Positions 1 to 22,879 of a DNA stretch of 22,879 bases are shown here, in pieces. The translations under genes were made by a program, and so were the position numbers. Source of the DNA: a virus (Duplodnaviria > Heunggongvirae > Uroviricota > Caudoviricetes); IMG/VR virus record IMGVR_UViG_2695420699_000018, positions 1 to 22,879 of that record. One strand, 5' to 3'. The notes below the pieces were generated by a model, which saw only the letters and a list, made by a program, of their open reading frames with translations, was not told the DNA's origin and did not search any database. Every line of letters starts with the position of its first letter. Positions within the stretch are counted from its first letter, which is position 1.

Positions 1-411
1 GAGTCCGAGCATTGCCCCCGTGCTGCTCATCTCGGACTCCTGTTCTTTCTTGGCGGTCAGCTCCGGATTTTTGACCATGCCACCCATTGCACCGGTGATG
101 GTGTTGCCCTGTCTGGCAATATTTTTCACGGCACGTCGCCAGAACTCATAGGCCACGCACCACCGCTCAAGTACCGCCAGGTCAGTCACGCACAGCAGGC
201 CCTGACCGCAGAGTTCTTTGGTTGTCAGTTGCCACATGATCGTGGCGAGAGGGAGATCTTCTTCAGCGAACCACTCCGGTGGCTCAACACCTTTGATGGG
301 CGTAAAAACAGGTTCATCTTTATTCAGGGCTCGCTTGCCGGGGTTTCCGGCCAGCGCCTTGCGCGCCGTTGGCTTGGGGCGACGCCCGGAACGCCCCGCC
401 GTTCCAGCCAT
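1..411 (-). CDS. Phage terminase small subunit (P27-like), copy 1, 3' end runs off the window
   Basis: DNA at 1..480 is near-identical to 2741..3220, which encodes the N-terminal part of the 2657..3151 TerS ORF. ATG (revcomp) at 409..411 preceded by AGGAG. Partial because the window starts inside the gene. Confidence 0.6.
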   Translation of the reverse strand, partial: MAGTAGRSGRRPKPTARKALAGNPGKRALNKDEPVFTPIKGVEPPEWFAEEDLPLATIMWQLTTKELCGQGLLCVTDLAVLERWCVAYEFWRRAVKNIARQGNTITGAMGGMVKNPELTAKKEQESEMSSTGAMLGL

Positions 412-480
412 ATGCGGCACTCCTGGTTAAATTTCATTTTTCGCGGGTATAAAAAAACGATGGGGCGGGCAGTCCGGAAG
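1..480. repeat. Direct repeat copy A (about 480 bp, a handful of mismatches) of the TerS 5' region; partner at 2741..3220
   Basis: Read directly: 1..480 aligns base-for-base with 2741..3220 with scattered substitutions (e.g. atg/ctg near 78/2818, cagcg/ctgcg near 254/2994). Similarity decays beyond 480/3220. Confidence 0.85.
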
Positions 481-536
481 ACGTCAGGCCGCAGGGATTT
501 GACCCGCCCCTCCCCTCAGGCAGTTGAGAATTATTA

Positions 537-887
537 TCACTTCAACCGTTCACGGGCCGTCTTCGCCTTATGACACGGCCAGCACAGACTCTGCAGATTA
601 CAGTCGGCATCAGTGCCGCCATGCGCTTTAGGGATGATGTGGTCAACGGTTTTCGCCTCGCGCACCACACCAGCACGCAGGCACAACTGGCACAGGCCTT
701 TGTCACGCTTGAGCACACGTTCACGGATAACATCCCATTTCGAACCATAACCGCGCTGGTGTCGGGACTGGCCTGGCTTGTATTGCTTCCAGCCTTCGCT
801 TTTGTGGCTTTCGCAATAGCCTGACGAGTCAGTGGTGGTATGGCGGCAGCCGCGAACGCGGCAGGCTTTTGGGGTTCGTGGGGGCAT
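537..887 (-). CDS. HNH endonuclease (phage-associated), copy 1
   Basis: Track ORF 537..950; preferred start is the internal Met (MPPRTPKACRVRGC...) at 887 with AAGAGGA SD. HNH signature VDHIIPKAHGGTD...NLQSLCWPCHKAKT and Cys-rich N-terminus. About 65 percent identical to the 3278..3628 protein. Confidence 0.8.
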   Translation of the reverse strand: MPPRTPKACRVRGCRHTTTDSSGYCESHKSEGWKQYKPGQSRHQRGYGSKWDVIRERVLKRDKGLCQLCLRAGVVREAKTVDHIIPKAHGGTDADCNLQSLCWPCHKAKTARERLK

Positions 888-1037
888 TGCATAATCCTCT
901 TGGATGGTTCGCGTACGATACGTGGCACCCTTCTCAGAATCGAATCGCACTCCATTCCGGTTTTGCCATAAACGATCTTTTATGCTTCGCTGGATGTAGT
1001 TGATAGTTGTTGAAACTCAATGAACAGGAGTTCACAA

Positions 1038-1373
1038 ATGAATAGTTATGAATGGGCATGGCTTTTGAACAAAGATGACACCCTATACTTTTTCCCCGTA
1101 GGCCATTCTGTAGAAGGTAATTACAAAATTCACTTTGAGTTGAGCGGTAGTTGTAACCTTAGAGTCTCAGATGCTGAATTGCATGGTAAACCTGTACTGC
1201 TGTTCGAATACTTCGATGAAGATGATGACCGCCCTGCAATAATCGAAATATTAGAAACAACCACTACAACTGTGGAGGCGATGATCGCACATCTGAATAG
1301 TATCGATAGTATTTACCATGAACCGATTTACAAAGCTGTTTACGAGTGGGCTGTAAAGTTTTTCTATCGATGA
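1038..1373 (+). CDS. Hypothetical small acidic protein (AT-rich cargo ORF)
   Basis: Track ORF 1020..1373; ATG at 1038 has AGGAG 8 nt upstream. Acidic (FEYFDEDDDRPAIIEILETTTTT), AT-rich, opposite strand to the phage late genes. No family recognised. Confidence 0.4.
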   Translation: MNSYEWAWLLNKDDTLYFFPVGHSVEGNYKIHFELSGSCNLRVSDAELHGKPVLLFEYFDEDDDRPAIIEILETTTTTVEAMIAHLNSIDSIYHEPIYKAVYEWAVKFFYR

Positions 1374-1652
1374 TACTTCGTTATCTTTCTGGCATTCACA
1401 ATACCTTTACATATTAATGACATGCCAGCACAATACTGTCACTTACAACCGTTCGGATTACCTAGAGAAAAGTATGATTCAGGATTTACTGATCGAAGCA
1501 ATTAGTCACGATAGGATGCATAAAAAGTTAAATGAACTGAATGGCTACTTCTACAATCGCAAACATGAAACACAAATACGTGATGAGTGATCTTACCCAG
1601 CAATAGTGGACACGCGGCTAAGTGAGTAAACTCTCAGTCAGAGGTGACTCAC

Positions 1653-1952
1653 ATGACAAAAACAGTATCAACCAGTAAAAAACCCCGTAAACAGCATTCG
1701 CCTGAATTTCGCAGTGAAGCCCTGAAGCTTGCTGAACGCATCGGTGTTACTGCCGCAGCCCGTGAACTCAGCCTGTATGAATCACAGCTCTACAACTGGC
1801 GCAGTAAACAGCAAAATCAGCAGACGTCTTCTGAACGTGAACTGGAGATGTCTACCGAGATTGCACGTCTCAAACGCCAGCTGGCAGAACGGGATGAAGA
1901 GCTGGCTATCCTCCAAAAGGCCGCGACATACTTCGCGAAGCGCCTGAAATGA
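1653..1952 (+). CDS. insE: IS3 transposase OrfA (HTH)
   Basis: [53 protein letters not shown]... recognised as IS3 OrfA. The track ORF begins at an upstream GTG (1644); the ATG is at 1653. Confidence 0.85.
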
Positions 1953-2597
1953 AGTATGTCTTTATTGAAAAACATCAGGCTGAGTTCAGCATCAAAGCAA
2001 TGTGCCGCGTGCTCCGGGTGGCCCGCAGCGGCTGGTATACGTGGTGTCAGCGGCGGACAAGGATAAGCACGCGTCAGCAGTTCCGCCAACACTGCGACAG
2101 CGTTGTCCTCGCGGCTTTTACCCGGTCAAAACAGCGTTACGGTGCCCCACGCCTGACGGATGAACTGCGTGCTCAGGGTTACCCCTTTAACGTAAAAACC
2201 GTGGCGGCAAGCCTGCGCCGTCAGGGACTGAGGGCAAAGGCCTCCCGGAAGTTCAGCCCGGTCAGCTACCGCGCACACGGCCTGCCTGTGTCAGAAAATC
2301 TGTTGGAGCAGGATTTTTACGCCAGTGGCCCGAACCAGAAGTGGGCAGGAGACATCACGTACTTACGTACAGATGAAGGCTGGCTGTATCTGGCAGTGGT
2401 CATTGACCTGTGGTCACGTGCCGTTATTGGCTGGTCAATGTCGCCACGCATGACGGCGCAACTGGCCTGCGATGCCCTGCAGATGGCGCTGTGGCGGCGT
2501 AAGAGGCCCCGGAACGTTATCGTTCACACGGACCGTGGAGGCCAGTACTGTTCAGCAGATTATCAGGCGCAACTGAAGCGGCATAATCTGCGTGGAA
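1949..2597 (+). pseudogene. insF: IS3 transposase OrfB (DDE), C-terminally truncated
   Basis: Track ORF 1949..2662 carries the IS3 OrfB integrase-core sequence (…[37 protein letters not shown]…[24 protein letters not shown]) then unrelated residues from about 2598. The C-terminal third of OrfB is absent. Confidence 0.8.
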
Positions 2598-2656
2598 ACG
2601 CACGACATCACGGGCATACTGATTGGCAGCATTTACGTTGGGGTAAGATTTCCGGC

Positions 2657-3151
2657 TCATGATTCGATGATTTTCAGAAACGGGTTAGTGGCTTTCTTCT
2701 GCCCCGCCAGGCCTATCAGACGCTGGCGGCTGCTGGGGTCGAGTCCGAGCATTGCCCCCGTGCTGCTCATCTCGGACTCCTGTTCTTTCTTGGCGGTCAG
2801 CTCCGGGTTTTTGACCCTGCCGCCCATTGCACCGGTGATGGTGTTGCCCTGGCTGGCAATATTTTTCACGGCACGTCGCCAGAACTCATAGGCCACGCAC
2901 CACCGCTCAAGTACCGCCAGGTCAGTCACGCACAGCAGGCCCTGACCGCAGAGTTCTTTGGTTGTCAGTTGCCACATGATCGTGGCGAGAGGGAGATCTT
3001 CTTCTGCGAACCACTCCGGTGGCTCAACACCTTTGATGGGCGTAAAAACAGGTTCATCTTTGTTCAGGGCTCGCTTGCCGGGGTTTCCGGCCAGCGCCTT
3101 GCGCGCCGTTGGCTTGGGGCGACGCCCGGAACGCCCCGCCGTTCCAGCCAT
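2657..3151 (-). CDS. Phage terminase small subunit (P27-like), copy 2
   Basis: Track ORF 2657..3160 (GTG); preferred ATG at 3151 ([25 protein letters not shown]…) with AGGAG SD. Sits immediately downstream of an HNH endonuclease, the usual HNH-TerS arrangement. The 3' end abuts the truncated IS3 rather than a large terminase gene. Confidence 0.65.
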
Positions 3152-3220
3152 ATGCGGCACTCCTGGTTAAATTTCATTTTTCGCGGGTATAAAAAAACGA
3201 TGGGGCGGGCGGTCCGGAAG
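2741..3220. repeat. Direct repeat copy B of the TerS 5' region (partner at 1..480)
   Basis: See copy A; read directly from the sequence. Confidence 0.85.
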
Positions 3221-3277
3221 GCGCGCGGTCGCAGAGATTTGACCTCCCCCTCCCCAGGCTGATGATGACATTAATTC

Positions 3278-3628
3278 TCACTTGAGCCGCTCGCGCGCGG
3301 TCTTCGCTGCGTGACACGACCGGCACAGGCTCTCAAGGTTGCTGTCTTCATCAGTACCGCCGTGGGCCTTCGCCTTGATGTGGTCAACGGTTGTGGCTGC
3401 GACAGCACGTCCAGTACGCAGGCAGTTCTGACACAGATGATTATCACGCTTCAGGATGCGGGCGCGTTTGATATCCCACTTGCTGCCGTAGCCACGCTCA
3501 TGGCGACTCTTACCCTGCTGATGCTGCTGCCAGCCCTCATTGCGATGCTGCTCACAGTAGCCTGAACGGTCCGTAGTCGTGCCAGGACAACCACGTTTGC
3601 GACATGCGCGGGGTATTAAAGTTGGCAT
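3278..3628 (-). CDS. HNH endonuclease (phage-associated), copy 2
   Basis: MPTLIPRACRKRGCPGTTTDRSGYCEQH… with HNH motif VDHIKAKAHGGTDEDSNLESLCRSCHAAKT. Homologous to but clearly diverged from the 537..887 copy. Confidence 0.85.
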   Translation of the reverse strand: MPTLIPRACRKRGCPGTTTDRSGYCEQHRNEGWQQHQQGKSRHERGYGSKWDIKRARILKRDNHLCQNCLRTGRAVAATTVDHIKAKAHGGTDEDSNLESLCRSCHAAKTARERLK

Positions 3629-3639
3629 ACATGCTCCGC

Positions 3640-3669
3640 AAAAACACCAGCCAAAGCTGGTGTTTTTTT
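3640..3669. terminator. Bidirectional intrinsic terminator
   Basis: AAAAACACCAGC-caaa-GCTGGTGTTTTTTT: perfect 8-bp GC-rich stem with a 4-nt loop, flanked by an A-run and a T-run, so it terminates in both orientations. Lies between the 187-aa gene and HNH copy 2. Confidence 0.75.
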
Positions 3670-3730
3670 ATTCTTATGTAACTCTAAAATTTAGAGATAA
3701 CATGTAGGAATGATTTGATAATTTGTAAGA

Positions 3731-4294
3731 CTACCCAAATCGAATAGCGCCACCCAACATTTCATTTTTGATTTTTGCCCTCGAATTTATCCTCTGGCAT
3801 ACATCATTATTATCCTTCATCCGCTCAACCCACTTAACTACCGCATCGCAGATATCATTAGATAAATTAATAACACTTAACTGAAGCACACCGTTAAACA
3901 TATTCATGTGCGCAGAAGAGTGCGTAAGTTGAATTTTTTGTAACTTAGTACTATCAGATGCCTCATGCAAAAATGCATTTCTTAAAGCCCAGTAGCTTTC
4001 ATGGTCAAAGCTTACCAATGGTTTTTTTGTTTTTAAATCATCGATTAAGTATTGAGGCATTTTATCTAATTGCTCGGGAAAGTTAGCCAAAAACGTCTCA
4101 TAAAGATTATCTGCAAAATATTTATCCTTAAGGTTATCCTTAAACCATCTTTTTGCTCTTGGCCCGTTCCGCTCTTCAGGAGTTTCAAGTTTCCCACATA
4201 TATCAGGAAGAGATAAGGCAATAAACAATGCAGCCTCATAATTTTCATCTAATAAAGATTTTCTTACTGACTCAACAAATTCAAGCATTTGCAT
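3731..4294 (-). CDS. Hypothetical 187-aa protein, AT-rich singleton (moron); possible HEPN-like R-x4-H motif
   Basis: Clean ORF with GGGGGAG SD before the ATG. GC content drops sharply relative to flanks. Contains LRNAFLHE (R-x4-H) in the central region. Bounded by the terminator at 3640..3669 and an 8-bp-arm hairpin at 4358..4375. Family not recognised. Confidence 0.6.
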   Translation of the reverse strand: MQMLEFVESVRKSLLDENYEAALFIALSLPDICGKLETPEERNGPRAKRWFKDNLKDKYFADNLYETFLANFPEQLDKMPQYLIDDLKTKKPLVSFDHESYWALRNAFLHEASDSTKLQKIQLTHSSAHMNMFNGVLQLSVINLSNDICDAVVKWVERMKDNNDVCQRINSRAKIKNEMLGGAIRFG

Positions 4295-4368
4295 TTACTC
4301 CCCCAGTTAATTAACTAGGGAAGAATATCATAAGCACATAATTAAAACCTGCTGTAGCTCCTAATTCA

Positions 4369-4599
4369 TTAGGAGAAGGAGATACCCAAATCAACCAGCA
4401 CAGCTTTCTTTTTCTCTATGCGGTGATCAAGCTCAGCAACAGCATGCGGGCGTATGGCCTCAAGAAAGGCATCGTCTTGATAGGTAGACTGGATTGTCAC
4501 ACCAAGCCCAGCACCACTTTCCAGTATGGTTTTCTGTCGCTGTAGCTCTTTCATCTCGTTATAGATGTAATGCGCGTTACTTAGGTTCTCTACGTTCAC
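4369..4599 (-). CDS. Hypothetical 76-aa protein downstream of the lysis cassette
   Basis: Track ORF; overlaps the 3' end of the o-spanin-like ORF by 23 nt in another frame. No recognised motif. Confidence 0.3.
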   Translation of the reverse strand: MNVENLSNAHYIYNEMKELQRQKTILESGAGLGVTIQSTYQDDAFLEAIRPHAVAELDHRIEKKKAVLVDLGISFS

Positions 4600-4819
4600 G
4601 ACCTGGATCCTTCATGCAGTTAGCCTGCGCTGATTTGTTGTGCGCCAATATGTCCCGCTTCGTCTGTTTATCCAGCACGGCAATATCGTGCTCAGTAAGG
4701 TAGATGATGCTTACCCAGTCACAGGCCGTGTCCGTTACTTCAGGTTTTGCGGGTAAATTTTTCGCGCAACTCACGGTCAACATCGTCATCAGGAAGATGG
4801 TTAACAGTCTGCTGTACAT
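4577..4819 (-). CDS. Putative o-spanin-like small secreted/lipoprotein-like protein
   Basis: N-terminal hydrophobic signal-like segment ending …LTVSC (non-canonical lipobox). The 5' end is embedded in the 3' end of the upstream TM-protein gene (overlap 4740..4819), the overlapped spanin architecture. Sits directly after the endolysin. Confidence 0.4.
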   Translation of the reverse strand: MYSRLLTIFLMTMLTVSCAKNLPAKPEVTDTACDWVSIIYLTEHDIAVLDKQTKRDILAHNKSAQANCMKDPGRERREPK

Positions 4820-5009
4820 CCCTGGCTCCTTTTGTTGTTTCTACCCGGCGTTCTGCAACGGCTTCAGTAGCTGCTGCGCGTTCTTCAGTGCGTTGCTGGT
4901 TCGCTTGTGTTTCTGCGATGCTTGTACCGCGTGATTTACCCAGACCAAAAGCACCTGCAATTGCAGCCAGCACAGCAACAGCTAGGCCGATAATCATTTC
5001 AAGTCCCAT
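4740..5009 (-). CDS. Putative i-spanin-like protein (N-terminal TM helix, charged periplasmic domain)
   Basis: Track ORF 4740..5171 overlaps the endolysin; the Met at 5009 (MGLEMIIGLAVAVLAAIAGAF…) has a GAGG SD and begins 8 nt after the endolysin stop. Single N-terminal TM helix followed by a charged, E/R/A/T-rich domain. Confidence 0.4.
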   Translation of the reverse strand: MGLEMIIGLAVAVLAAIAGAFGLGKSRGTSIAETQANQQRTEERAAATEAVAERRVETTKGARDVQQTVNHLPDDDVDRELREKFTRKT

Positions 5010-5016
5010 TGCGACC

Positions 5017-5631
5017 TCATACCAGTGCGGTTTTTGCTTTGGCATAACGTTCACGGCGGTCTTTAATGCCGTTCTGCCCGCCGTTAATAATCTGCGTGAC
5101 GCGCTCAACATCCCCCGAATATAGAAGGCAACCACGTAACGTGAAGTACCATGCCGCCGAACGGGCCGCATGTCGCTCTTGCGTCAAAAGTTCTGGCGTA
5201 CTGATCAGATCAAGGTTCAGCGCTGTACCGCATTTGGTGTAGTTCTCACGACCAGTGATTTGTAGCAGGCCACGACCGCGATATTTCCAGCCATCACCCT
5301 GACTGTTATTCCCCATGCGGTCACCATAAACCAGATTGGCTATTTGTGGCTGGTGAGCGACCTGTTTACCATCGACACGCCCCAGCATTTCGCACTGATA
5401 CGGCGTCAGGCGCTTACCAAAGGTTTTCTTCAGCCCTTCAACCGAGTAGTTAAAATTCTCTACCAGCGAGGTAAAGCCATTGGATTCATGCCCAACTTGT
5501 GCAATGAACATGGCCTGATCATTAATCGCTGTAATTCCAAACTCTTTCATTGCCGCATCAATGTGCGGAAACCAGCGCGCAGAAAGCCCGGCGCTGATAC
5601 CAGCCGCCTGCTGAAATTGTGATTGGTTCAT
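5017..5631 (-). CDS. Endolysin, glycoside hydrolase family 19 (chitinase class I-like lysozyme)
   Basis: GH19-type signature YRGRGLLQITGRENY and FIAQVGHESNGF. Lies between holin-like membrane proteins and spanin-like genes. Confidence 0.8.
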   Translation of the reverse strand: MNQSQFQQAAGISAGLSARWFPHIDAAMKEFGITAINDQAMFIAQVGHESNGFTSLVENFNYSVEGLKKTFGKRLTPYQCEMLGRVDGKQVAHQPQIANLVYGDRMGNNSQGDGWKYRGRGLLQITGRENYTKCGTALNLDLISTPELLTQERHAARSAAWYFTLRGCLLYSGDVERVTQIINGGQNGIKDRRERYAKAKTALV

Positions 5632-5912
5632 TATTGCCTCAGATGATCAACCAGACGTGCAACGTTGCCTCTGACGGACACCAGCACGGAAAGAAAAATA
5701 GTATTAGCCACGATAATGGGCCATGAGGAATGGGGATAAATCCCACAGAGATAGGCCAACGGAACAGCACTGTATGTAACAGTAATCAGCCAGGCTAAAC
5801 GTGAAACCCAAGGACGATGCCGCGAATCACCACGACGATAAAACATCAGAGTAATAACAACACAAGCACATAACAGCGCATTTATAGTTGCTGTCGGGTC
5901 ATTTAGCTCCAC
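5631..5912 (-). CDS. Small multi-TM membrane protein, putative holin/antiholin
   Basis: 93 aa with about three hydrophobic helices (ALLCACVVITLMFY, LAWLITVTYSAVPLAYLCGIY, IIVANTIFLSVLV). Directly upstream of the endolysin; its stop overlaps the endolysin start. Confidence 0.5.
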   Translation of the reverse strand: MELNDPTATINALLCACVVITLMFYRRGDSRHRPWVSRLAWLITVTYSAVPLAYLCGIYPHSSWPIIVANTIFLSVLVSVRGNVARLVDHLRQ

Positions 5913-6285
5913 CTGAACCTCCCCGGCGCGTTATGAGCACCACCAGCGAGCCGATATCCTGATTATTCAGGAACGTCAGGATTTTAACGGCTAAAGCAGA
6001 GACGATTACGGCACCAATAGCATCCAGAGGTTTATCACTGTATCCGGTCAAGTTCGCCAGCTTGGAGCCAACCAACCCAGAGCAAAGGATCCCGGCAATA
6101 TATGACACGATAAAATATGCCAGTCGGCGCGATGCACTCAGATCTGCTGCTGTTGCTATGTAGAATACAGCCCCTGCAAATGCGCCAAATACAACGCCGT
6201 AATCAGTTCCGGTCAGCAGTCCATAAACACTGGCACCCGTCAGGGCACCACCAGCCAGCCCAGTACCGGAAATCGGATCGGACAT
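5899..6285 (-). CDS. Putative holin (glycine/alanine-rich membrane protein)
   Basis: 128 aa with G/A-rich TM segments (VVFGAFAGAVFYIATAA, AYFIVSYIAGILCSGLVG, AIGAVIVSALAVKIL). First membrane gene of the lysis cassette; 14-nt overlap with the next gene. Confidence 0.5.
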   Translation of the reverse strand: MSDPISGTGLAGGALTGASVYGLLTGTDYGVVFGAFAGAVFYIATAADLSASRRLAYFIVSYIAGILCSGLVGSKLANLTGYSDKPLDAIGAVIVSALAVKILTFLNNQDIGSLVVLITRRGGSGGAK

Positions 6286-6364: not shown

Positions 6365-6622
6365 TCAAACACTACCCTGTTGATGATTTCTCAGAAGCGA
6401 ACTTGACTCCCAGGGGAAACTCAACTTTCCGTTAAAACCACCAGCAGACATTCGTTCAATTTCCACAGAAATATCACTGAGCCGTTCTTCAAGCTCTGCT
6501 TTTTCTTTTACCAGACGGTTATAGCGGCTTAGATGAAGCTTTTGCTGCTCCAGCCAGTCTTCAAGCTGTTCAACAGTCATACAAGGGTTAAAAAAATATG
6601 GCTGCTGCTTTTCGCCCTGCAT
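6365..6622 (-). CDS. Hypothetical 85-aa coiled-coil-like protein in the slot between the late terminator and the lysis genes
   Basis: Track ORF 6365..6691; preferred start is the Met at 6622 (MQGEKQQPYFF…) with GGAGG 6 nt upstream. The tR'-like terminator lies just upstream of that start. Confidence 0.45.
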   Translation of the reverse strand: MQGEKQQPYFFNPCMTVEQLEDWLEQQKLHLSRYNRLVKEKAELEERLSDISVEIERMSAGGFNGKLSFPWESSSLLRNHQQGSV

Positions 6623-6640
6623 TATTGACCTCCAGAAAAG

Positions 6641-6666
6641 CAAAAACCCCGCCGAAGCGAGGTTTG
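6641..6666 (-). terminator. Intrinsic terminator, tR'-like (late-operon terminator downstream of Q)
   Basis: Minus strand reads CCTCGC-TTCG-GCGGGG-TTTTT: 6-bp stem with one G-U pair, tetraloop, T-run. About 110 nt downstream of the Q stop and just upstream of the first late ORF. Confidence 0.55.
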
Positions 6667-6772
6667 TTATGATTTCGTTAACGGCAGACATACAAAGCCC
6701 ATCGTTAGGAGAATCCTAACCATATTTTTTGAAAAATGCAAGCATCATGTCGCCATCTTCGGCGAAAATCAT

Positions 6773-7525
6773 TTATCTTGTCACTTTTCTCAATTGTGTC
6801 TCTGCATATGCTTCTTCCTGCCAGCACTTTGTAACCAGTTTATCAATGACACCTGCATATCCTTTGTACCACTGATAATCCGTCAGGTCCGGTACCAGCT
6901 TCTGGACATGATGCCGCGCCAGTGTGGTTGGTAAACGGCTAAACCGGTTTCCATTGCAACGCCCACAAATCTTATAAACAGGCGTGCCATGAAGCCGGGT
7001 TCTTTTTTCATCCAGGACAATACCTTTACCCTTACACCCTCTGCACGCTGTGCTGACTTCTCCCTTACCATGACAATGCTGACATAGTTCCTTCACCCAC
7101 TCCTCCTTGATAACAGATTCACCGCTTCTGGAGTGTTTCACCACTTCGCGCAATACATTATGAAATCCAGTACCAGCACAATGCTCACAGCGAGCCTTAC
7201 TTGCCGCAGACCTGGAATAATCAGCAAAGGCAAAATTCACAAGGTAAGGAATGATCTGTAGCCGGGTTTCTTCACTCAATTTATTCAATGTCGGGTTATC
7301 CAGTGCCATCGCGTAATTGAGCAGACCTTCAATCGCAAACTGAGGATCCTGAACACCAACTTTTGCCAGGAATAAGGCAAAACCCAGTGGTGCTTTCGAC
7401 TGCACCATCCCCTGCGCAGCCATCACATCCGTAATCGTTAAACCACCAGAGCCTGTCGCCGGTGCGTCATCGCTCAATTTTGGAGATTTTGGGGAGTAAT
7501 ATTTTGGTAAGGCTTCAAGGTTCAT
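6773..7525 (-). CDS. Late-gene antiterminator, Q-like (250 aa, Cys-rich zinc-binding)
   Basis: Several CxxC pairs (CEHCAGTG, CQHCHGKG, CRGCKGKG, CGRCNG). Position immediately upstream of the tR'-like terminator and lysis cassette. Length and position match the Qin-prophage YdfT-type Q as I recall it. Confidence 0.65.
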   Translation of the reverse strand: MNLEALPKYYSPKSPKLSDDAPATGSGGLTITDVMAAQGMVQSKAPLGFALFLAKVGVQDPQFAIEGLLNYAMALDNPTLNKLSEETRLQIIPYLVNFAFADYSRSAASKARCEHCAGTGFHNVLREVVKHSRSGESVIKEEWVKELCQHCHGKGEVSTACRGCKGKGIVLDEKRTRLHGTPVYKICGRCNGNRFSRLPTTLARHHVQKLVPDLTDYQWYKGYAGVIDKLVTKCWQEEAYAETQLRKVTR

Positions 7526-7538
7526 GCTCGTTCTCCAC

Positions 7539-8534
7539 TTACGCCAGTACGCCTATTGCCAGCGCACGATCGATAAAACGAAATATCAGCTCCAGCTGGG
7601 AGCCATACTTCTCTTCAAATGCCACGGTATCCGCATGCAGCTCGTCGTGATGCTTTCTGCACAAAGGCAACACAAAAAGGTCATGCGCTTTTGTACCCAT
7701 TCCACCCTGACCGTGGCCTATCAGGTGGTGGGGATCATCAGCAGGCTTTCCACAACATGCACACGGCTGTGTCTTAACCCAGCGCGTGTACTTTTCATTA
7801 ACCCAGCGGCGACGTTTTGGGCGTAACATAAAAGACTCCGGCGACTCCGGATCCACTTTCAGCGCCAGCACCTTTTTCGCCTTATCCTGGATGATGCTGG
7901 TGGCAGGAACCGAAGGCACAAGGTCACTTTCCCGGGTAACAGACGGCACAACAGGCTTCGGTAATCTCAGTGCCTTACGGGCTGCACTTTCCGGTAAGGC
8001 ATCCGCCAGATCATTACGAATCAGCCACCAGCACAGTTCCGGCATTGTCACAACGTGACTGTCATCAAAACCGAGATCCCGACGCACAACAGACAACACC
8101 CAGCGGGCACAGTTATCCGTTGCCATTGATTCCAGCCGTTCCGTGAACTGATCGCGCAGCTGGTTATCGCAGTGCCAGCACAGACGGATTGCACCCGGAG
8201 CGTGTCGCATTGTGGTCATGTTCTCGCTGTGCCAGTCGGAATGAGGCCACTGGCAGCCTTTTTCACGAAGTAACCAGCTTTCAAGACATTCCACGCCACC
8301 AGCACGACGGATCACTGCCTCATTGCGGAACACGGCCCGAACGGCAGGATCATCCGCCAGCGGTTGTGATGCCGCCGGAACGGCACCACTGGCGAAAGAT
8401 GAATAACGCTCCGGCTCAGGCTCCAGCAGGACACGCCCCTGCATAAACAGGGGCATCAGCTCTGAACCTGGCCTGAACAATACGATCCCCATACGCGGGG
8501 CAATTTCAGGGGTCAGTAGTGCTCTCACGGTCAC
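7539..8534 (-). CDS. DUF968-family protein (YdfU-like) with HNH-like C-terminal motif
   Basis: C-terminal CACCGKPADDPHHLIGHGQGGMGTKAHD…LCRKHHDELH is HNH-like. Recalled similarity to lambdoid prophage YdfU-type proteins. Sits between KilA-N and Q. Confidence 0.6.
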   Translation of the reverse strand: MTVRALLTPEIAPRMGIVLFRPGSELMPLFMQGRVLLEPEPERYSSFASGAVPAASQPLADDPAVRAVFRNEAVIRRAGGVECLESWLLREKGCQWPHSDWHSENMTTMRHAPGAIRLCWHCDNQLRDQFTERLESMATDNCARWVLSVVRRDLGFDDSHVVTMPELCWWLIRNDLADALPESAARKALRLPKPVVPSVTRESDLVPSVPATSIIQDKAKKVLALKVDPESPESFMLRPKRRRWVNEKYTRWVKTQPCACCGKPADDPHHLIGHGQGGMGTKAHDLFVLPLCRKHHDELHADTVAFEEKYGSQLELIFRFIDRALAIGVLA

Positions 8535-8535
8535 C

Positions 8536-9345
8536 TCAATGAACGGTATCGAGCAGCTTTAACAGCTCAGGGAATCGGGATTCGAAGAAATGCGGCTGCG
8601 TCTCGCGCGGATTTGCGGGACTGGTGATGTTCTTGCCGAACATGCAACCTTTCGCTGTCAGCGACCAGAATTTTTTGATGTTGTTAATCGCGGTACGGCT
8701 GTATCGTTCGCGCTGCTCGACGATCCCCAGTTTCACCATCTGGTGATATGCCTGATTAGCCGTCAGGCGTATACCATACTGTTTCAGCAGTGCACTCAGT
8801 GACAGTGTCGGGCGACTTGAGCCATCGTGTGCATCAGCAGGAGCATCAATGGCATAGCGCGGTGCCAGATTCGGTAAGCCAACAGCCTCCTGGAGTTTCT
8901 GACAGGCACCAAGCACTGAAGAGTTAGACAGGTTTAACTCCCGGCGCATAAAGTCCAGCAGGATCACGCCAGCCTGCATCTTGTCAGCAGCCTGTCCGGA
9001 TAATTTTTCCGGTGCGCTGGTTACCATATCGAAAGTACGGATCACCTTCAGATGGAATGACGGGCTGATCCACATTGCATAGGCATACACCAGTTCCTTG
9101 CAGACATACGTTCCCCGTTCATTTCCCCCATGAATCACACTCACCGGGTCAACACCCAAATTCTGGGTGTTGGTCAATTCATGAACAAGCTCAACAGTTT
9201 GTTGGCTGGAAAGAAACTTTCCCGGCTCCTTGGTTCTGGCATTTGCACCAGATGCTACTGCTGCGCGATGCAGATCGTTCAGGCTGTAACGCCCATAAGC
9301 ATCACGACGAACTTCAATACCATCAATGACCATCAGATTATTCAT
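8536..9345 (-). CDS. KilA-N domain protein (putative regulatory / antirepressor-like)
   Basis: Track ORF 8536..9378; preferred start is the Met at 9345 (MNNLMVIDGIEVRRDAYGRYSLNDLHRAA…) with GAGGAG SD. N-terminal sequence is KilA-N-like. Confidence 0.55.
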   Translation of the reverse strand: MNNLMVIDGIEVRRDAYGRYSLNDLHRAAVASGANARTKEPGKFLSSQQTVELVHELTNTQNLGVDPVSVIHGGNERGTYVCKELVYAYAMWISPSFHLKVIRTFDMVTSAPEKLSGQAADKMQAGVILLDFMRRELNLSNSSVLGACQKLQEAVGLPNLAPRYAIDAPADAHDGSSRPTLSLSALLKQYGIRLTANQAYHQMVKLGIVEQRERYSRTAINNIKKFWSLTAKGCMFGKNITSPANPRETQPHFFESRFPELLKLLDTVH

Positions 9346-20031: not shown

Positions 20032-20381
20032 TGGAGCCATACAGCCTCACACTCGATGAGGCCTGTCATTTTCTCAAGATATCCAGACCGACTGCCATTA
20101 ACTGGATACGCACAGGGCGTCTTCAGGCAACACGCAAAGATCCCACTAAGAATAAATCTCCTTACCTCACAACACGACAAGCCTGCATTGCGGCTCTTCA
20201 GTCTCCGCTGCATACTGTCCAGGTGAGCGCGGGTGATGGCATAACAGAGGAAAGAAAATGTCACTCTTCCGCAGAGGTGAAATATGGTACGCCAGTTTCA
20301 CATTGCCGAACGGTAAAAGATTTAAACAGTCTCTTGGAACAAAGGACAAAAGGCAGGCGACAGAACTCCATGACAAGCTAA
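20031..20381 (+). CDS. xis: Excisionase-like / AlpA-type HTH protein (putative Xis)
   Basis: [37 protein letters not shown]… is AlpA/Xis-like. GAGGTGA SD. Immediately upstream of the integrase; the frame runs 124 nt into it, so the 3' end is uncertain. Confidence 0.5.
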
Positions 20382-21421
20382 AGGCTGAAGCATGGCGGGT
20401 CAGCAAACTTGGTGAAATACCTGATATAACGTTCGAGGAAGCGTGTGTCAGGTGGCTTGAAGAGAAAGCACATAAAAAATCACTGGACGATGACAAAAGC
20501 CGGATCGGATTCTGGCTTCAACATTTCGCAGGAATGCAACTAAGAGACATTACTGAATCAAAAATTTATTCAGCAATGCAGAAAATGACGAACCGGCGTC
20601 ATGAGGAAAACTGGAAACTCAGGGCAGAAGCATGCAGAAAAAAAGGGAAACCTGTTCCAGAATACACGCCAAAACCAGCGTCCGTTGCAACGAAGGCTAC
20701 GCATCTTTCATTTATAAAGGCCCTACTAAGAGCCGCAGAGCGTGAATGGAAAATGCTGGATAAGGCACCAATTATTAAAGTGCCTCAACCAAAGAATAAA
20801 CGGATCCGCTGGCTGGAGCCCCATGAAGCACAAAGGCTGATTGATGAATGTCCGGAGCCATTAAAGTCTGTTGTTGAATTTGCACTGGCAACAGGCTTAA
20901 GACGCTCGAACATCATCAACCTTGAATGGCAACAAATAGATATGCAGCGCCGGGTGGCATGGATAAACCCGGAAGAGAGTAAATCAAACCGCGCAATTGG
21001 CGTTGCGCTGAATGATACTGCATGTCGCGTATTGAAAAAACAAATCGGGAATCATCACCGTTGGGTATTTGTGTACAAGGAAAGCTGTACCAAACCAGAC
21101 GGAACGAAAGCGCCAACAGTAAGGAAGATGCGGTATGACGCAAACACAGCCTGGAAAGCGGCGCTGAGACGGGCTGGTATTGATGATTTCAGATTTCACG
21201 ACTTGAGACACACCTGGGCAAGTTGGCTGGTTCAAGCCGGAGTCCCGTTGTCAGTGTTACAGGAAATGGGAGGCTGGGAGTCTATCGAAATGGTTCGTCG
21301 ATATGCTCACCTTGCACCTAATCACCTTACCGAACACGCACGGCAAATAGACTCGATCCTGAACCCATCGGTCCCAAATTTGTCCCAGTCAAAAAATAAG
21401 GAAGGTACTAATGATGTGTAA
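20258..21421 (+). CDS. int: Tyrosine-type site-specific integrase (phage integrase family)
   Basis: C-terminal catalytic region …[42 protein letters not shown]… Stop codon 15 bp from the 3' end of the tRNA. Confidence 0.95.
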
Positions 21422-21435
21422 CTTATTGATTTAAA

Positions 21436-21511
21436 TGGTGCCGATAATAGGAGTCGAACCTACGACCTTCGCATTACGAATGCGCTGCTCTACCAACTGA
21501 GCTATATCGGC
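21436..21511 (-). tRNA. thrW: tRNA-Thr (anticodon CGU)
   Basis: Reverse complement of 21436..21511 is GCCGATATAGCTCAGTTGGTAGAGCAGCGCATTCGTAATGCGAAGGTCGTAGGTTCGACTCCTATTATCGGCACCA: 76 nt, cloverleaf-compatible, anticodon loop TTCGTAA, CCA end. Adjacent to proA as for thrW in E. coli. Confidence 0.95.
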
Positions 21512-21625
21512 CCTGAAAGGACATGTTCACGAACGTGAATCACGGTGGACAAGGTTAAAACTAACCGGGCGATGCGTCAATGGCCTTGTGAATCAAATGG
21601 CTACTTTTGCATCACCCGGTTTTAT

Positions 21626-22879
21626 TTACGCACGAATGGTGTAATCACCAATGCCGATCCACTTGTAAGTGGTCAGTGCTTCCAGCCCCATTGGGCCACG
21701 CGCGTGGAGTTTTTGTGTGCTTACCGCCACTTCCGCACCCAGACCAAACTGGCCGCCGTCGGTAAAACGCGTAGAGGCGTTAACGTAAACAGCGGACGAA
21801 TCCACTTCGTTAACAAAACGCTGGGCGTTGCGCATATCGCGGGTCAAGATCGCATCGGAGTGTTGTGTGCCGTGTTCACGAATATGGGCGATGGCATCGT
21901 CAAGATCGCTGACGATTTTGACGTTCAAATCTAATGACAGAAACTCATCGTCATACTCTTCGGCTTTAACAGCAACCACCTTCGCAGGGCCTGTCTGCAA
22001 CTGCGCCAGTGCAGCTGCATCTGCGTGTAATGTCACGCCGCTTTCCGCCATTTGTTTGCTTAATGCGGGCAGGAAGCTATCGGCGATGTTTTTATTCACC
22101 AGCAACGTTTCAACCGTATTACATGTGCTCGGACGCTGAGTTTTCGCGTTGACGATCACTTTTAATGCTTCAGCGATCTCTACACTTTCATCAACGTAAA
22201 TATGGCATACGCCTATACCACCTGTGATCACCGGGATTGTCGACTGTTCACGGCACAGTTTATGCAAACCAGCGCCACCACGCGGGATCAGCATGTCGAT
22301 GTATTTATCCATACGCAGCATTTCACTGACCAGCGCACGGTCAGGATTATCAATCGCCTGCACGGCACCCGCCGGTAAGCCGCAGGATTTCAGGGCGTCC
22401 TGAATCACCGCCACCGTTGCAGCGTTAGTGCGACACGTTTCTTTGCCACCGCGCAGGATCACCGCATTACCGGTTTTCAGGCACAGCGAAGCGACATCAA
22501 CCGTCACGTTCGGGCGCGCTTCATAAATCACGCCAATAACCCCCAGCGGTACGCGACGACGCTCAAGACGCAGGCCGCTGTCCAGTACGCTGCCATCGAT
22601 TACCTGCCCCACCGGATCGGCGAGGTTACACACCTGGCGCACATCATCGGCAATGCCTTTCAGCCGTGCGGGCGTCAGTGCCAGACGGTCAAGCATCGCT
22701 TCGCCAAGGCCATTGGCACGCGCGTCAGCAACATCCTGGGCGTTAGCGTTGAGGATGATTTCGCTTTGTGCTTCCAGTTCATCGGCGATTTTTTCCAGCA
22801 CGCGATTTTTTTCGCGGCTGGAGAGTTGCGCTAATTTATACGAGGCTTGCTTCGCGGCAATGCCCATTTGTTCCAGCAT
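21626..22879 (-). CDS. proA: Gamma-glutamyl phosphate reductase (glutamate-5-semialdehyde dehydrogenase)
   Basis: 417-aa ORF beginning [38 protein letters not shown]…, recognised as enterobacterial ProA. The start codon coincides with the window end. Confidence 0.97.

What the first reader, a model, noticed from the sequence alone, without database searches (positions are those of the whole stretch)
3640..4375. Terminator-insulated AT-rich singleton gene with a HEPN-like R-x4-H motif between the lysis and packaging modules
Seen in sequence: the 187-aa ORF (3731..4294) sits in a sharp GC trough, has its own SD, and is bracketed by a perfect bidirectional terminator (3640..3669) and an 8-bp-arm hairpin (4358..4375). 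The protein contains LRNAFLHE, fitting the R-x(4-6)-H pattern of HEPN RNase domains. Established knowledge: the interval between lysis genes and terminase in lambdoid phages is a recurrent moron and defence-gene insertion site. Inference: a horizontally acquired accessory gene, possibly a HEPN-type abortive-infection or toxin protein. The motif match is short and could be chance.
Basis: partly seen in the sequence, partly recalled or inferred. Interest (0 to 1): 0.65.

Follow-up and report, generated by a model that had tools for sequence, protein, structure and literature searches.

The report
Stand-alone HEPN-type RNase prophage cargo gene
A small AT-rich gene dropped between the lysis and DNA-packaging genes of an E. 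coli prophage encodes a member of a large, uncatalogued protein family with the fold and invariant catalytic residues of HEPN RNases, so it is probably a latent RNA-cutting weapon used in conflicts between phages, though nobody has tested it.

Summary
The observation mostly holds. A minus-strand ORF (3731..4294; probable true start 4288, 185 aa) lies in a 719-bp AT-rich cassette (3629-4347, GC 0.35; flanks 0.59 and 0.50) between the lysis genes and HNH/terminase. The 3640-3669 hairpin is a real bidirectional terminator-like element. The 4358-4375 hairpin is not: it folds no better than shuffles, has no U-run and is backbone DNA.

No Pfam, NCBIfam, PADLOC or PDB sequence match exists, yet the family has at least 2,700 clusters across many phyla. 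It is therefore an uncurated HEPN family.

No neighbour is conserved. The 76-aa ORF is backbone (239 genomes against 10), not an antitoxin.

In enterobacterial temperate phages the gene always follows the lysis cassette on the late strand, shows no recognisable promoter, and has its Shine-Dalgarno buried in a hairpin.

A defence (abortive-infection) role, like HepS or Tha, is inferred and untested.

The parts
3629..4347 (-). AT-rich cargo cassette (terminator, gene and leader) inserted between backbone genes
   Evidence: blastn against relatives with other cargo: homology ends at 3628 and resumes at 4348-4373. GC is 0.346, against 0.586 and 0.502 in the flanks. The whole locus is in only 10 of 5,426 complete E. 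coli genomes.
3731..4288 (-). CDS of the stand-alone HEPN-like protein. It is 185 aa from the probable true start (ATG at 4288); the mechanically called ORF starts at 4294 and gives 187 aa.
   Evidence: ORF list. All homologues begin at M3. AF2 gives pLDDT 87.8 and pTM 0.85. Matches phrog_18591 at E=2.7e-29.
3962..3985 (-). Codons for L104-R105-N106-A-F-L-H110-E111, the R-x4-H putative RNase active-site motif
   Evidence: R105 and H110 are invariant in A1, A2 and A3. They lie at the C-terminal end of predicted helix 98-109, which is where the HEPN motif is defined to lie (PMC3710099).
4190..4207 (-). Codons for P30-D31-I-C-G-K35, the invariant acidic residue in core helix 2 (a D-x3-K equivalent of the HEPN E-x3-[KR] motif)
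   Evidence: P30 and D31 are invariant in 56 and 94 diverse sequences. They lie in helix 19-37 of the model. Definition taken.
4298..4323 (-). 11-bp hairpin that pairs the Shine-Dalgarno (GGGGGAG, 4298-4304) with an upstream anti-SD; a probable brake on translation
   Evidence: The 86-nt leader fold has z -3.3. SD-occluding hairpins with unrelated sequences recur in enterobacterial relatives. SD pairing probability is 0.88 against 0.58 in background genes, p=4e-4 for that lineage.
3640..3669 (.). Bidirectional intrinsic-terminator-like hairpin at the 3' end of the cassette
   Evidence: It lies inside the cassette boundaries. Terminator-like hairpins follow the gene in 12 of 31 distinct lineages.
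4358..4375 (.). Weak 7-bp hairpin overlapping the stop codon of the 76-aa ORF. It is backbone DNA and not a terminator.
   Evidence: z 0.06 on the gene strand and no U-run. It lies in DNA shared with prophage L002, which lacks the gene.
4369..4599 (-). 76-aa backbone ORF (phrog_5415, unknown function). It is not a partner of the HEPN gene.
   Evidence: Present in 239 genomes, against 10 for the HEPN gene. Absent next to homologues elsewhere.

Best explanation
The gene encodes a stand-alone ('solo') member of a previously uncurated family of the HEPN superfamily of metal-independent endoribonucleases. It is carried as exchangeable cargo in the lysis-to-packaging slot of a temperate lambdoid/HK97-like prophage integrated at tRNA-Thr.

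SHOWN
- It is a discrete AT-rich cassette in a variable slot.
- The protein family is large and widespread, and it has no conserved neighbour.
- The predicted fold is a HEPN-type four-helix core.
- The invariant R105-x4-H110 sits at the end of core helix 3, and the invariant D31 sits in helix 2.
- A beta-sheet insert (residues 120-140, with the conserved H129) lies between helices 3 and 4, as in Csx1.

INFERRED
- The protein dimerises, as other HEPN RNases do, to form a composite R/H active site.
- It is kept latent by its conformation. In the enterobacterial lineage it is also kept scarce, because a hairpin buries the ribosome-binding site.
- When triggered by a component of a competing phage, it cleaves tRNA or mRNA and aborts that phage's infection. 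This is how the single-protein prophage systems HepS and Tha work.
- No promoter is recognisable, and the gene lies on the late strand directly after the lysis genes. Most of its transcription therefore probably comes from the Q-antiterminated late transcript. Expression in the lysogen would be low, or from a non-canonical promoter.
For: CARGO STATUS.

FAMILY SIZE AND SPREAD
- 2,710 representative clusters at E<=1e-3.
- 2,581 hits in the 90%-identity database, with no Pfam domain on any of the 120 listed.
- Members occur in Nitrospira, Methylomonas, Arthrobacter, Clostridia and Armatimonadetes.

INVARIANT RESIDUES: P30, D31, R105 and H110.

FOLD
- There are two independent AF2 models, with pLDDT 87.8 and 95.3.
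- The second model gives the same top three hits.
- The motif position, the polar residue after R (N106), the acidic residue in helix 2 and the insert between helices 2 and 3 all match the published definition (PMC3710099).

NO PARTNER
- No gene at -1 or +1 is shared by more than 3 of 32 lineages.
- Distant members are orphan genes.

POSITION AND CARRIERS
- The position after lysis genes of five different types is constant.
- All carriers are temperate-type phages.

PRECEDENTS: HepS (PMC13043305) and Tha (PMC11087260).

SD OCCLUSION.
Against: - No sequence-profile link exists to any curated HEPN family or any solved structure.
- PADLOC finds nothing.
- No sigma-70-like promoter is found upstream in the window or in most relatives. 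Constitutive expression in the lysogen, which HepS and Tha show, is therefore unsupported.
- The same slot also carries counter-defence-type cargo (an Acb2/Tad1-like gene next to a homologue). Guilt by association therefore cuts both ways.
- RNase activity, toxicity and phage protection have not been tested.
Confidence: 0.55

Rival explanations
1. The protein is a HEPN RNase that works for the phage during its own lytic cycle rather than as lysogen immunity. It would be made late from the Q-antiterminated transcript. It would then cut host or competitor RNAs (host shut-off, nucleotide scavenging, exclusion of co-infecting phages or satellites) or counteract a host defence.
For: - The gene is on the same strand as the late genes and directly follows the lysis cassette in every enterobacterial lineage.
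- No promoter is recognisable within 250-400 nt upstream.
- The downstream terminator would be read through by Q-modified polymerase (established lambda biology).
- An Acb2/Tad1-like counter-defence gene shares the slot in one relative.
Against: - Distant family members are orphan chromosomal genes outside prophages. Others sit beside an integrase or after umuDC. A late-lytic role does not explain these positions.
- The gene is rare and exchangeable in otherwise identical prophages, so it is dispensable for the lytic cycle.
- Throttling translation through SD occlusion fits a dangerous latent enzyme better than a bulk shut-off nuclease.
Confidence: 0.22
2. The protein is the toxin of a toxin-antitoxin or addiction module whose antitoxin has been missed. 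The antitoxin could be the 76-aa upstream ORF, a small antisense RNA or a tiny ORF.
For: - Many HEPN proteins are TA toxins (HepT/MntA, RnlA/RnlB, LsoA; one search hits; PMC3710099).
- The SD-sequestering leader resembles the translational control of type I toxins.
Against: - The 76-aa ORF is a backbone gene in 239 genomes, against 10 for the HEPN gene, and it is absent beside homologues.
- No neighbour is conserved across 32 lineages.
- There is no MNT gene, and the RX4HXY signature of HepT is missing (the sequence is H-E-A).
- Rfam finds no element in the cassette above chance level.
- HepS shows that a solo HEPN protein needs no antitoxin.
Confidence: 0.08
3. The protein is a catalytically inert HEPN-like helical protein, such as a ligand- or protein-binding regulator. 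Some HEPN domains fused to nucleotidyltransferases, and MtlR, are of this kind.
For: - There is no profile match to RNase families.
Against: - Non-catalytic HEPN domains characteristically lose Rx4-6H. Here R and H are invariant across about 100 sequences that share as little as 24-30% identity, as is the helix-2 Asp.
Confidence: 0.1
4. The ORF is not a real gene, or the R-x4-H is a chance match.
For: The motif is short, and AT-rich DNA yields long ORFs less often but gives odd composition.
Against: There are thousands of homologues with conserved length and conserved motifs, and the structure models are confident.
Confidence: 0.01

Closest known systems
HepS (Gifsy-1 prophage 'HEPN Solo' abortive-infection protein; PDB 9OIJ/9OIK; PMC13043305)
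   Same: - Both are single-gene, prophage-borne HEPN proteins of about 200 aa with R-x4-H at nearly the same position (R100-H105 in HepS, R105-H110 here).
- Neither has a conserved partner or inhibitor.
- Both are found from Firmicutes to Enterobacteriaceae.
- HepS provides the mechanistic template: a latent oligomer that a phage structural protein activates to cut tRNA anticodon loops.
   Different: - No sequence relationship is detectable. Two family profiles gave no hit at E<=10 against PDB chains.
[quoted passage not shown] This gene sits after the lysis cassette on the late strand, with no visible promoter.
- I could not retrieve the HepS sequence for a direct comparison.
Tha/Ith (Staphylococcus aureus prophage tail-activated HEPN system; PMC11087260)
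   Same: It is a prophage-encoded HEPN RNase that structural proteins of incoming phages activate, and it faces the same problem of avoiding self-targeting on induction.
   Different: Tha is transcribed from the cI operon and has a dedicated antisense-encoded inhibitor, Ith. No such partner or arrangement exists here.
Csx1/Csm6 HEPN domains (type III CRISPR ancillary RNases)
   Different: This protein has no CARF sensor domain and no CRISPR context, it is much smaller, and no sequence similarity is detectable.
HepT (DUF86) toxins of HepT/MntA type VII TA systems
   Different: There is no adjacent MNT antitoxin, no RX4HXY signature and no Pfam DUF86 match.
AbiV (Lactococcus HEPN abortive-infection RNase)
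   Different: The match is not significant. The AbiV family typically lacks the motif His and uses an alternative one, and it works as a two-component system.
Phage 'morons' (cargo cassettes inserted between conserved late genes of lambdoid phages)
   Same: It is a discrete insertion with deviant GC between backbone genes. It has its own terminator, and the contents of the slot vary between relatives.
   Different: No recognisable promoter of its own was found.

Membership tests
HEPN superfamily (Anantharaman et al. 2013, PMC3710099) | [quoted passage not shown] | tested here: met
HEPN superfamily (Anantharaman et al. 2013, PMC3710099) | Conserved R-x4-6-H at the end of helix 3, running into the loop towards helix 4 | tested here: met
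   R105 and H110 are invariant. They lie at the C-terminal end of helix 98-109, followed by a loop. In the second model R81 and H86 lie at the end of helix 74-87.
HEPN superfamily (Anantharaman et al. 2013, PMC3710099) | Polar residue (N, D or H) immediately after the motif Arg | tested here: inconclusive
   It is N106 in this protein and in the enterobacterial subfamily, but Cys in the majority of the wider family (consensus LRCAxLH).
HEPN superfamily (Anantharaman et al. 2013, PMC3710099) | Second conserved acidic residue in helix 2 (E-x3-[KR]-like) | tested here: met
   D31 is invariant within P-D-I-C-G-K35 (a D-x3-K) in helix 19-37.
HEPN superfamily (Anantharaman et al. 2013, PMC3710099) | Profile-level sequence similarity to an established HEPN family | tested here: not met
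   hmmscan of 21 and 56 members against Pfam gave no HEPN family. NCBIfam and PADLOC gave none. Profiles against PDB chains gave 0 hits at E<=10. HHpred-type profile-profile comparison against HEPN families could not be run.
HEPN superfamily (Anantharaman et al. 2013, PMC3710099) | Metal-independent endoRNase activity from a composite dimer active site | not testable with these tools
   This needs biochemistry or multimer modelling.
HepS family (PMC13043305) | Sequence homology to HepS (STM14_3211; PDB 9OIJ) | tested here: not met
   No PDB chain matched either family profile or the protein itself at E<=10. HepS is not among the top structural hits. I could not confirm that 9OIJ is in the local copies, and I could not obtain the sequence.
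HepS family (PMC13043305) | Stand-alone HEPN protein under 250 aa, prophage-borne, with no co-occurring partner | tested here: met
   The protein is 185-187 aa. No neighbour is conserved across 32 lineages. Prophage contexts are shown.
HepS family (PMC13043305) | Activation by the siphovirus tail-tip protein J, and anticodon-loop cleavage | not testable with these tools
   This is an experimental question.
HepT/MntA type VII toxin-antitoxin | Adjacent MNT nucleotidyltransferase antitoxin and an RX4HXY motif | tested here: not met
   The neighbours are Rz/Rz1, a 76-aa backbone ORF and an HNH gene. The motif reads R-N-A-F-L-H-E-A.
Csx1/Csm6 | N-terminal CARF domain and a CRISPR-Cas context | tested here: not met
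   The protein is a single domain of 185 aa in a prophage late region.
Known defence systems in PADLOC-DB v2 | Match to any of the 5,027 defence-protein models | tested here: not met
   No match was found at E<=1.
Phage moron (promoter-gene-terminator cassette between backbone genes) | Discrete insertion with deviant composition and its own terminator | tested here: met
Phage moron (promoter-gene-terminator cassette between backbone genes) | Own promoter active in the lysogen | tested here: inconclusive
   No sigma-70-like site scoring at least 8-9 of 12 lies within about 400 nt upstream, nor in most relatives. A consensus scan cannot exclude weak or atypical promoters.

The most novel reading that the evidence does not exclude
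This is the founding phage-borne representative of a large, entirely unannotated HEPN family (at least 2,700 clusters, bacteria-wide). It acts as a self-contained sensor-effector with a new trigger and/or a new RNA target. In enterobacterial temperate phages it is deliberately wired into the late operon behind a structure that occludes the ribosome-binding site. The RNase would then be made only during the prophage's own lytic burst, as a weapon against co-infecting phages or satellites rather than as classical lysogen immunity.
Probability: 0.2. Interest if true: 0.65.

Novelty: new member of a known kind. Interest (0 to 1): 0.5.

Why it matters
HEPN RNases are recurring effectors of antiviral immunity (Cas13, Csm6, RnlA, AbiV, HepS, Tha). 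This finding adds a widespread family that none of the curated libraries tried here (Pfam, NCBIfam, PADLOC) recognises, so genome annotation and defence-system censuses currently miss it.

The E. coli copy is an experimentally convenient single-gene cassette in a defined prophage hotspot. Toxicity, RNase specificity, trigger identification by escape mutants, and the puzzle of how a prophage tolerates its own RNase can all be tested directly.

The late-strand position, the lack of a promoter and the occluded ribosome-binding site also raise a question about timing: immunity in the lysogen, or competition during the burst. The known solo HEPN systems do not pose that question.

Tried and rejected
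- Pfam, NCBIfam and PADLOC scans of the protein and of 21 and 56 relatives gave no family. PHROGs gave only phrog_18591, of unknown function.
- Sequence and profile searches against PDB chains gave nothing at E<=10.
- Foldseek against the PDB gave no significant hits. The AFDB50 library was unavailable.
- I tried to obtain HepS for a direct comparison. The LT2 Gifsy-1 record has no ORF with R100/H105, and the paper's supplements are not held.
- The 76-aa ORF as antitoxin was rejected, because it is a backbone gene with a much wider distribution.
- The 4358-4375 hairpin as an upstream insulator was rejected.
- A promoter search with the tool and with a looser scan found nothing convincing.
- Rfam gave only sub-threshold matches to the terminator hairpin.
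- A literature search for the protein accession and the PHROG found no paper.
- GiPD474, another Gifsy defence protein, is an ATPase and unrelated.
- The search for related loci with the very diverse alignment A2 failed because it had no stretch conserved enough. It was rerun with A1.

Full report
WHAT IS THERE

The minus strand carries the prophage late genes, in this order:
- a Q-type antiterminator (6773-7525);
- two holins (5631-6285);
- a GH19 endolysin (5017-5631);
- Rz/Rz1 spanins (4577-5171);
- a 76-aa ORF (4369-4599, phrog_5415);
- the 187-aa ORF;
- an HNH endonuclease (3278-3628);
- a P27-type small terminase (2657-3160).

GC falls from 0.50-0.59 in the flanks to 0.346 across 3629-4347.

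The hairpin at 3640-3669 has a 12-bp stem and T/U runs on both sides. It folds far better than shuffled sequence on both strands (z -4.0 and -4.4).

The hairpin at 4358-4375 is weak. It has 7-bp arms, z 0.06 on the gene strand and no U-run. It lies in DNA shared with prophages that lack the gene, so the gene is not insulated on both sides.

Every homologue starts at the residue equivalent to M3. The Shine-Dalgarno GGGGGAG (4298-4304) is 9 nt from that ATG (4288) but only 3 nt from the first ATG. The product is therefore probably 185 aa.

IT IS EXCHANGEABLE CARGO

The whole locus is present at 99.8% identity or better in only 10 of 5,426 complete E. coli genomes. A further 229 genomes match only the part that carries the 76-aa ORF.

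In those relatives the interval between the 76-aa ORF and the HNH gene holds other genes. One has a YfbU-family gene and another has two hypothetical genes, in both cases on the opposite strand.

blastn places the breakpoints at 3628, which is the HNH start codon, and at 4348-4373. The cassette therefore consists of the terminator, the gene and its leader.

A 94%-identical allele (L028, L029) has different DNA immediately after its stop codon. The slot is thus a mosaic that can hold several cargo genes.

THE PROTEIN FAMILY

Pfam, NCBIfam and PADLOC give nothing. PHROGs gives only phrog_18591, of unknown function.

A first search found 22 relatives, mostly from Enterobacterales. A profile search of 1.84 billion representative proteins found 2,710 clusters at E<=1e-3 and 1,507 at E<=1e-10. 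A profile search of the 5.8-billion-protein set found 2,581 hits, and none of the 120 listed has a Pfam domain.

Members occur in Nitrospira, Methylomonas, Arthrobacter, Clostridia, Armatimonadetes and other groups.

Most members are about 170 aa. The enterobacterial subfamily carries an extra helical insert at residues 60-97.

P30, D31, R105 and H110 are invariant in alignments of 56 and 94 diverse sequences. N18, R46, W50, H129 and W155 are nearly invariant. The R-x4-H motif is therefore the most conserved feature of a large family and not a chance match.

THE FOLD

AlphaFold2 gave pLDDT 87.8 and pTM 0.85 for the window protein. For a Methylomonas relative of about 30% identity, modelled from a 94-sequence alignment, it gave pLDDT 95.3 and pTM 0.89. 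Both models show the same layout:
- helix 1 (residues 3-15);
- helix 2 (19-37), which carries D31-x3-K35;
- a helical insert;
- helix 3 (98-109), with R105 in its last turn and H110 at its end;
- a small beta-sheet (120-140), which carries H129;
- helix 4 (141-159).

Foldseek was not significant; its best hit was AbiV at E=0.65. Family profiles match no PDB chain at E<=10.

I conclude that this is a HEPN-fold family with an intact catalytic signature that has no sequence-detectable tie to any curated HEPN family. I put confidence in that assignment at about 0.85.

NO PARTNER

I collected 68 family loci from genomes and viral contigs, called their ORFs and clustered the neighbours.
- Across 32 distinct lineages, no gene at position -1 or +1 recurs in more than 3.
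- The recurrent neighbours are lysis genes lying upstream on the same strand. They belong to five different types: GH19, P21-type holin, phage lysozyme, holin_3_7/GH108 and Rz.
- One lineage sits directly after umuD-umuC.
- In Acinetobacter phage TCUAN1 the gene lies beside the integrase.
- In Escherichia phage ECP1, a lambdoid member of the Hendrixvirinae, an unannotated homologue occupies the same lysis-to-packaging slot.
- Distant members are orphan genes between unrelated operons.

The 76-aa ORF is therefore not an antitoxin, and the protein is a 'solo' HEPN.

EXPRESSION LOGIC

No sigma-70-like promoter lies upstream in the window or in most relatives. The gene is co-oriented with the late operon.

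A terminator-like hairpin follows the gene in 12 of 31 lineages, mostly enterobacterial ones.

The SD is paired in an 11-bp hairpin at 4298-4323. In at least six of eleven enterobacterial lineages, leaders with unrelated sequences also bury the SD. In that lineage the SD pairing probability is 0.88, against 0.58 for 125 background genes (p=4e-4). For the whole family the difference is not significant (p=0.08), and I chose the subset after seeing the data.

The inference is that transcription comes mainly from the late transcript, and that translation is throttled, as expected for a dangerous enzyme.

MECHANISM AND COMPARISON

The closest functional precedents are two prophage systems.
- HepS of Gifsy-1 is a single HEPN protein (R100-H105). 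It forms a latent tetramer that the tail-tip protein J of incoming siphoviruses activates, and it then cuts tRNA anticodon loops (PMC13043305).
- Tha of S. aureus prophages is a HEPN RNase that tail proteins activate and that its inhibitor Ith holds in check (PMC11087260).

The present protein shares the solo architecture, the prophage carriage and the catalytic motif. It shows no detectable homology to either system, it sits in a different genome position and it has different apparent expression signals.

My best explanation (confidence 0.55) is that it is a latent, trigger-activated HEPN RNase used in conflicts between phages. The main rival (0.22) is a role in the phage's own late lytic programme. 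A toxin-antitoxin toxin (0.08) and a non-catalytic HEPN-like protein (0.10) are less likely. A chance ORF or motif is excluded.

NOVELTY AND SCORE

This is a new, uncurated family within a well-known superfamily, in a known type of cargo slot, with recent close functional precedents. I class it as a 'new member of a known kind'.

It is worth following up because the family is large and completely unannotated, and the E. coli cassette is easy to test. A specialist would not find it very surprising. Interest 0.5.

Noticed in passing
window 1-3454 (copies at 1-713 and 2741-3454; IS3-family element at 1644-2662): The left end holds a second, 90%-identical copy of the 5' part of terS plus an HNH gene (537-950). 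An IS3-family element (HTH_Tnp_1 and rve ORFs, the latter apparently truncated) separates it from the first copy. This looks like an IS-associated junction or recombination between two related prophage packaging modules. Prophages in strain M8 instead continue directly into terL.
   Followed up: partly
window 951-1643: The equivalent cargo slot upstream of the second HNH copy holds different AT-rich cargo (GC 0.39). It has two plus-strand ORFs (1020-1373, 117 aa; 1417-1590, 57 aa) with no Pfam or PADLOC match. It is a second example of the hotspot within the same window.
   Followed up: partly
window 4286-4323: The annotated and mechanical start (ATG at 4294) is probably wrong. The homologues and the SD spacing favour ATG at 4288. 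The SD is sequestered in an 11-bp hairpin, and the same feature recurs with unrelated sequences in enterobacterial relatives.
   Followed up: yes
L006 1116-1415 (Logan SRR31617696 contig): In one Enterobacter-type relative the gene immediately upstream of the HEPN homologue carries an Acb2/Tad1 hairpin domain, typical of anti-CBASS/anti-Thoeris sponges. The slot therefore also carries counter-defence cargo.
   Followed up: no
L004/L032 6953-9558; L043 6743-9411; L049 6711-8773; ECP1 (L079) 6672-9264: A recurrent gene set follows the HEPN homologue in several relatives. It comprises a glycosyltransferase-like protein of about 486-489 aa, a protein of about 190-206 aa and an HNH_3/AP2 endonuclease. 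It may be a DNA- or surface-modification module.
   Followed up: no
L052, L053, L059, L065, L068 (IMG/VR contigs): A distinct lineage of the family sits directly downstream of a umuD-like (Peptidase_S24) and umuC-like (IMS) gene pair. This suggests co-transcription with an SOS-regulated operon in those prophages.
   Followed up: partly
KY979108.1 8611-9039 (Escherichia phage ECP1): A homologue with 32% identity over 90% of the query lies in a stretch with no annotated feature in the deposited phage genome.
   Followed up: partly
window 20258-22879: The prophage end holds an integrase (20258-21421), a tRNA-Thr(CGT) gene (21436-21511) that is the likely attachment site, and then a host gene of the aldehyde-dehydrogenase family.
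   Followed up: partly
family members P0049 (328 aa), P0055 (324 aa), P0120 (326 aa), P0281 (361 aa); one TPR-fused member in A2: A few family members are fused to extra N- or C-terminal regions, and one has TPR repeats. These could be sensor domains and may hint at how the solo forms are regulated.
   Followed up: no
window 6365-6691 (minus strand): A 108-aa ORF between the Q antiterminator and the holins, at the head of the late operon, has no Pfam or PADLOC match.
   Followed up: no
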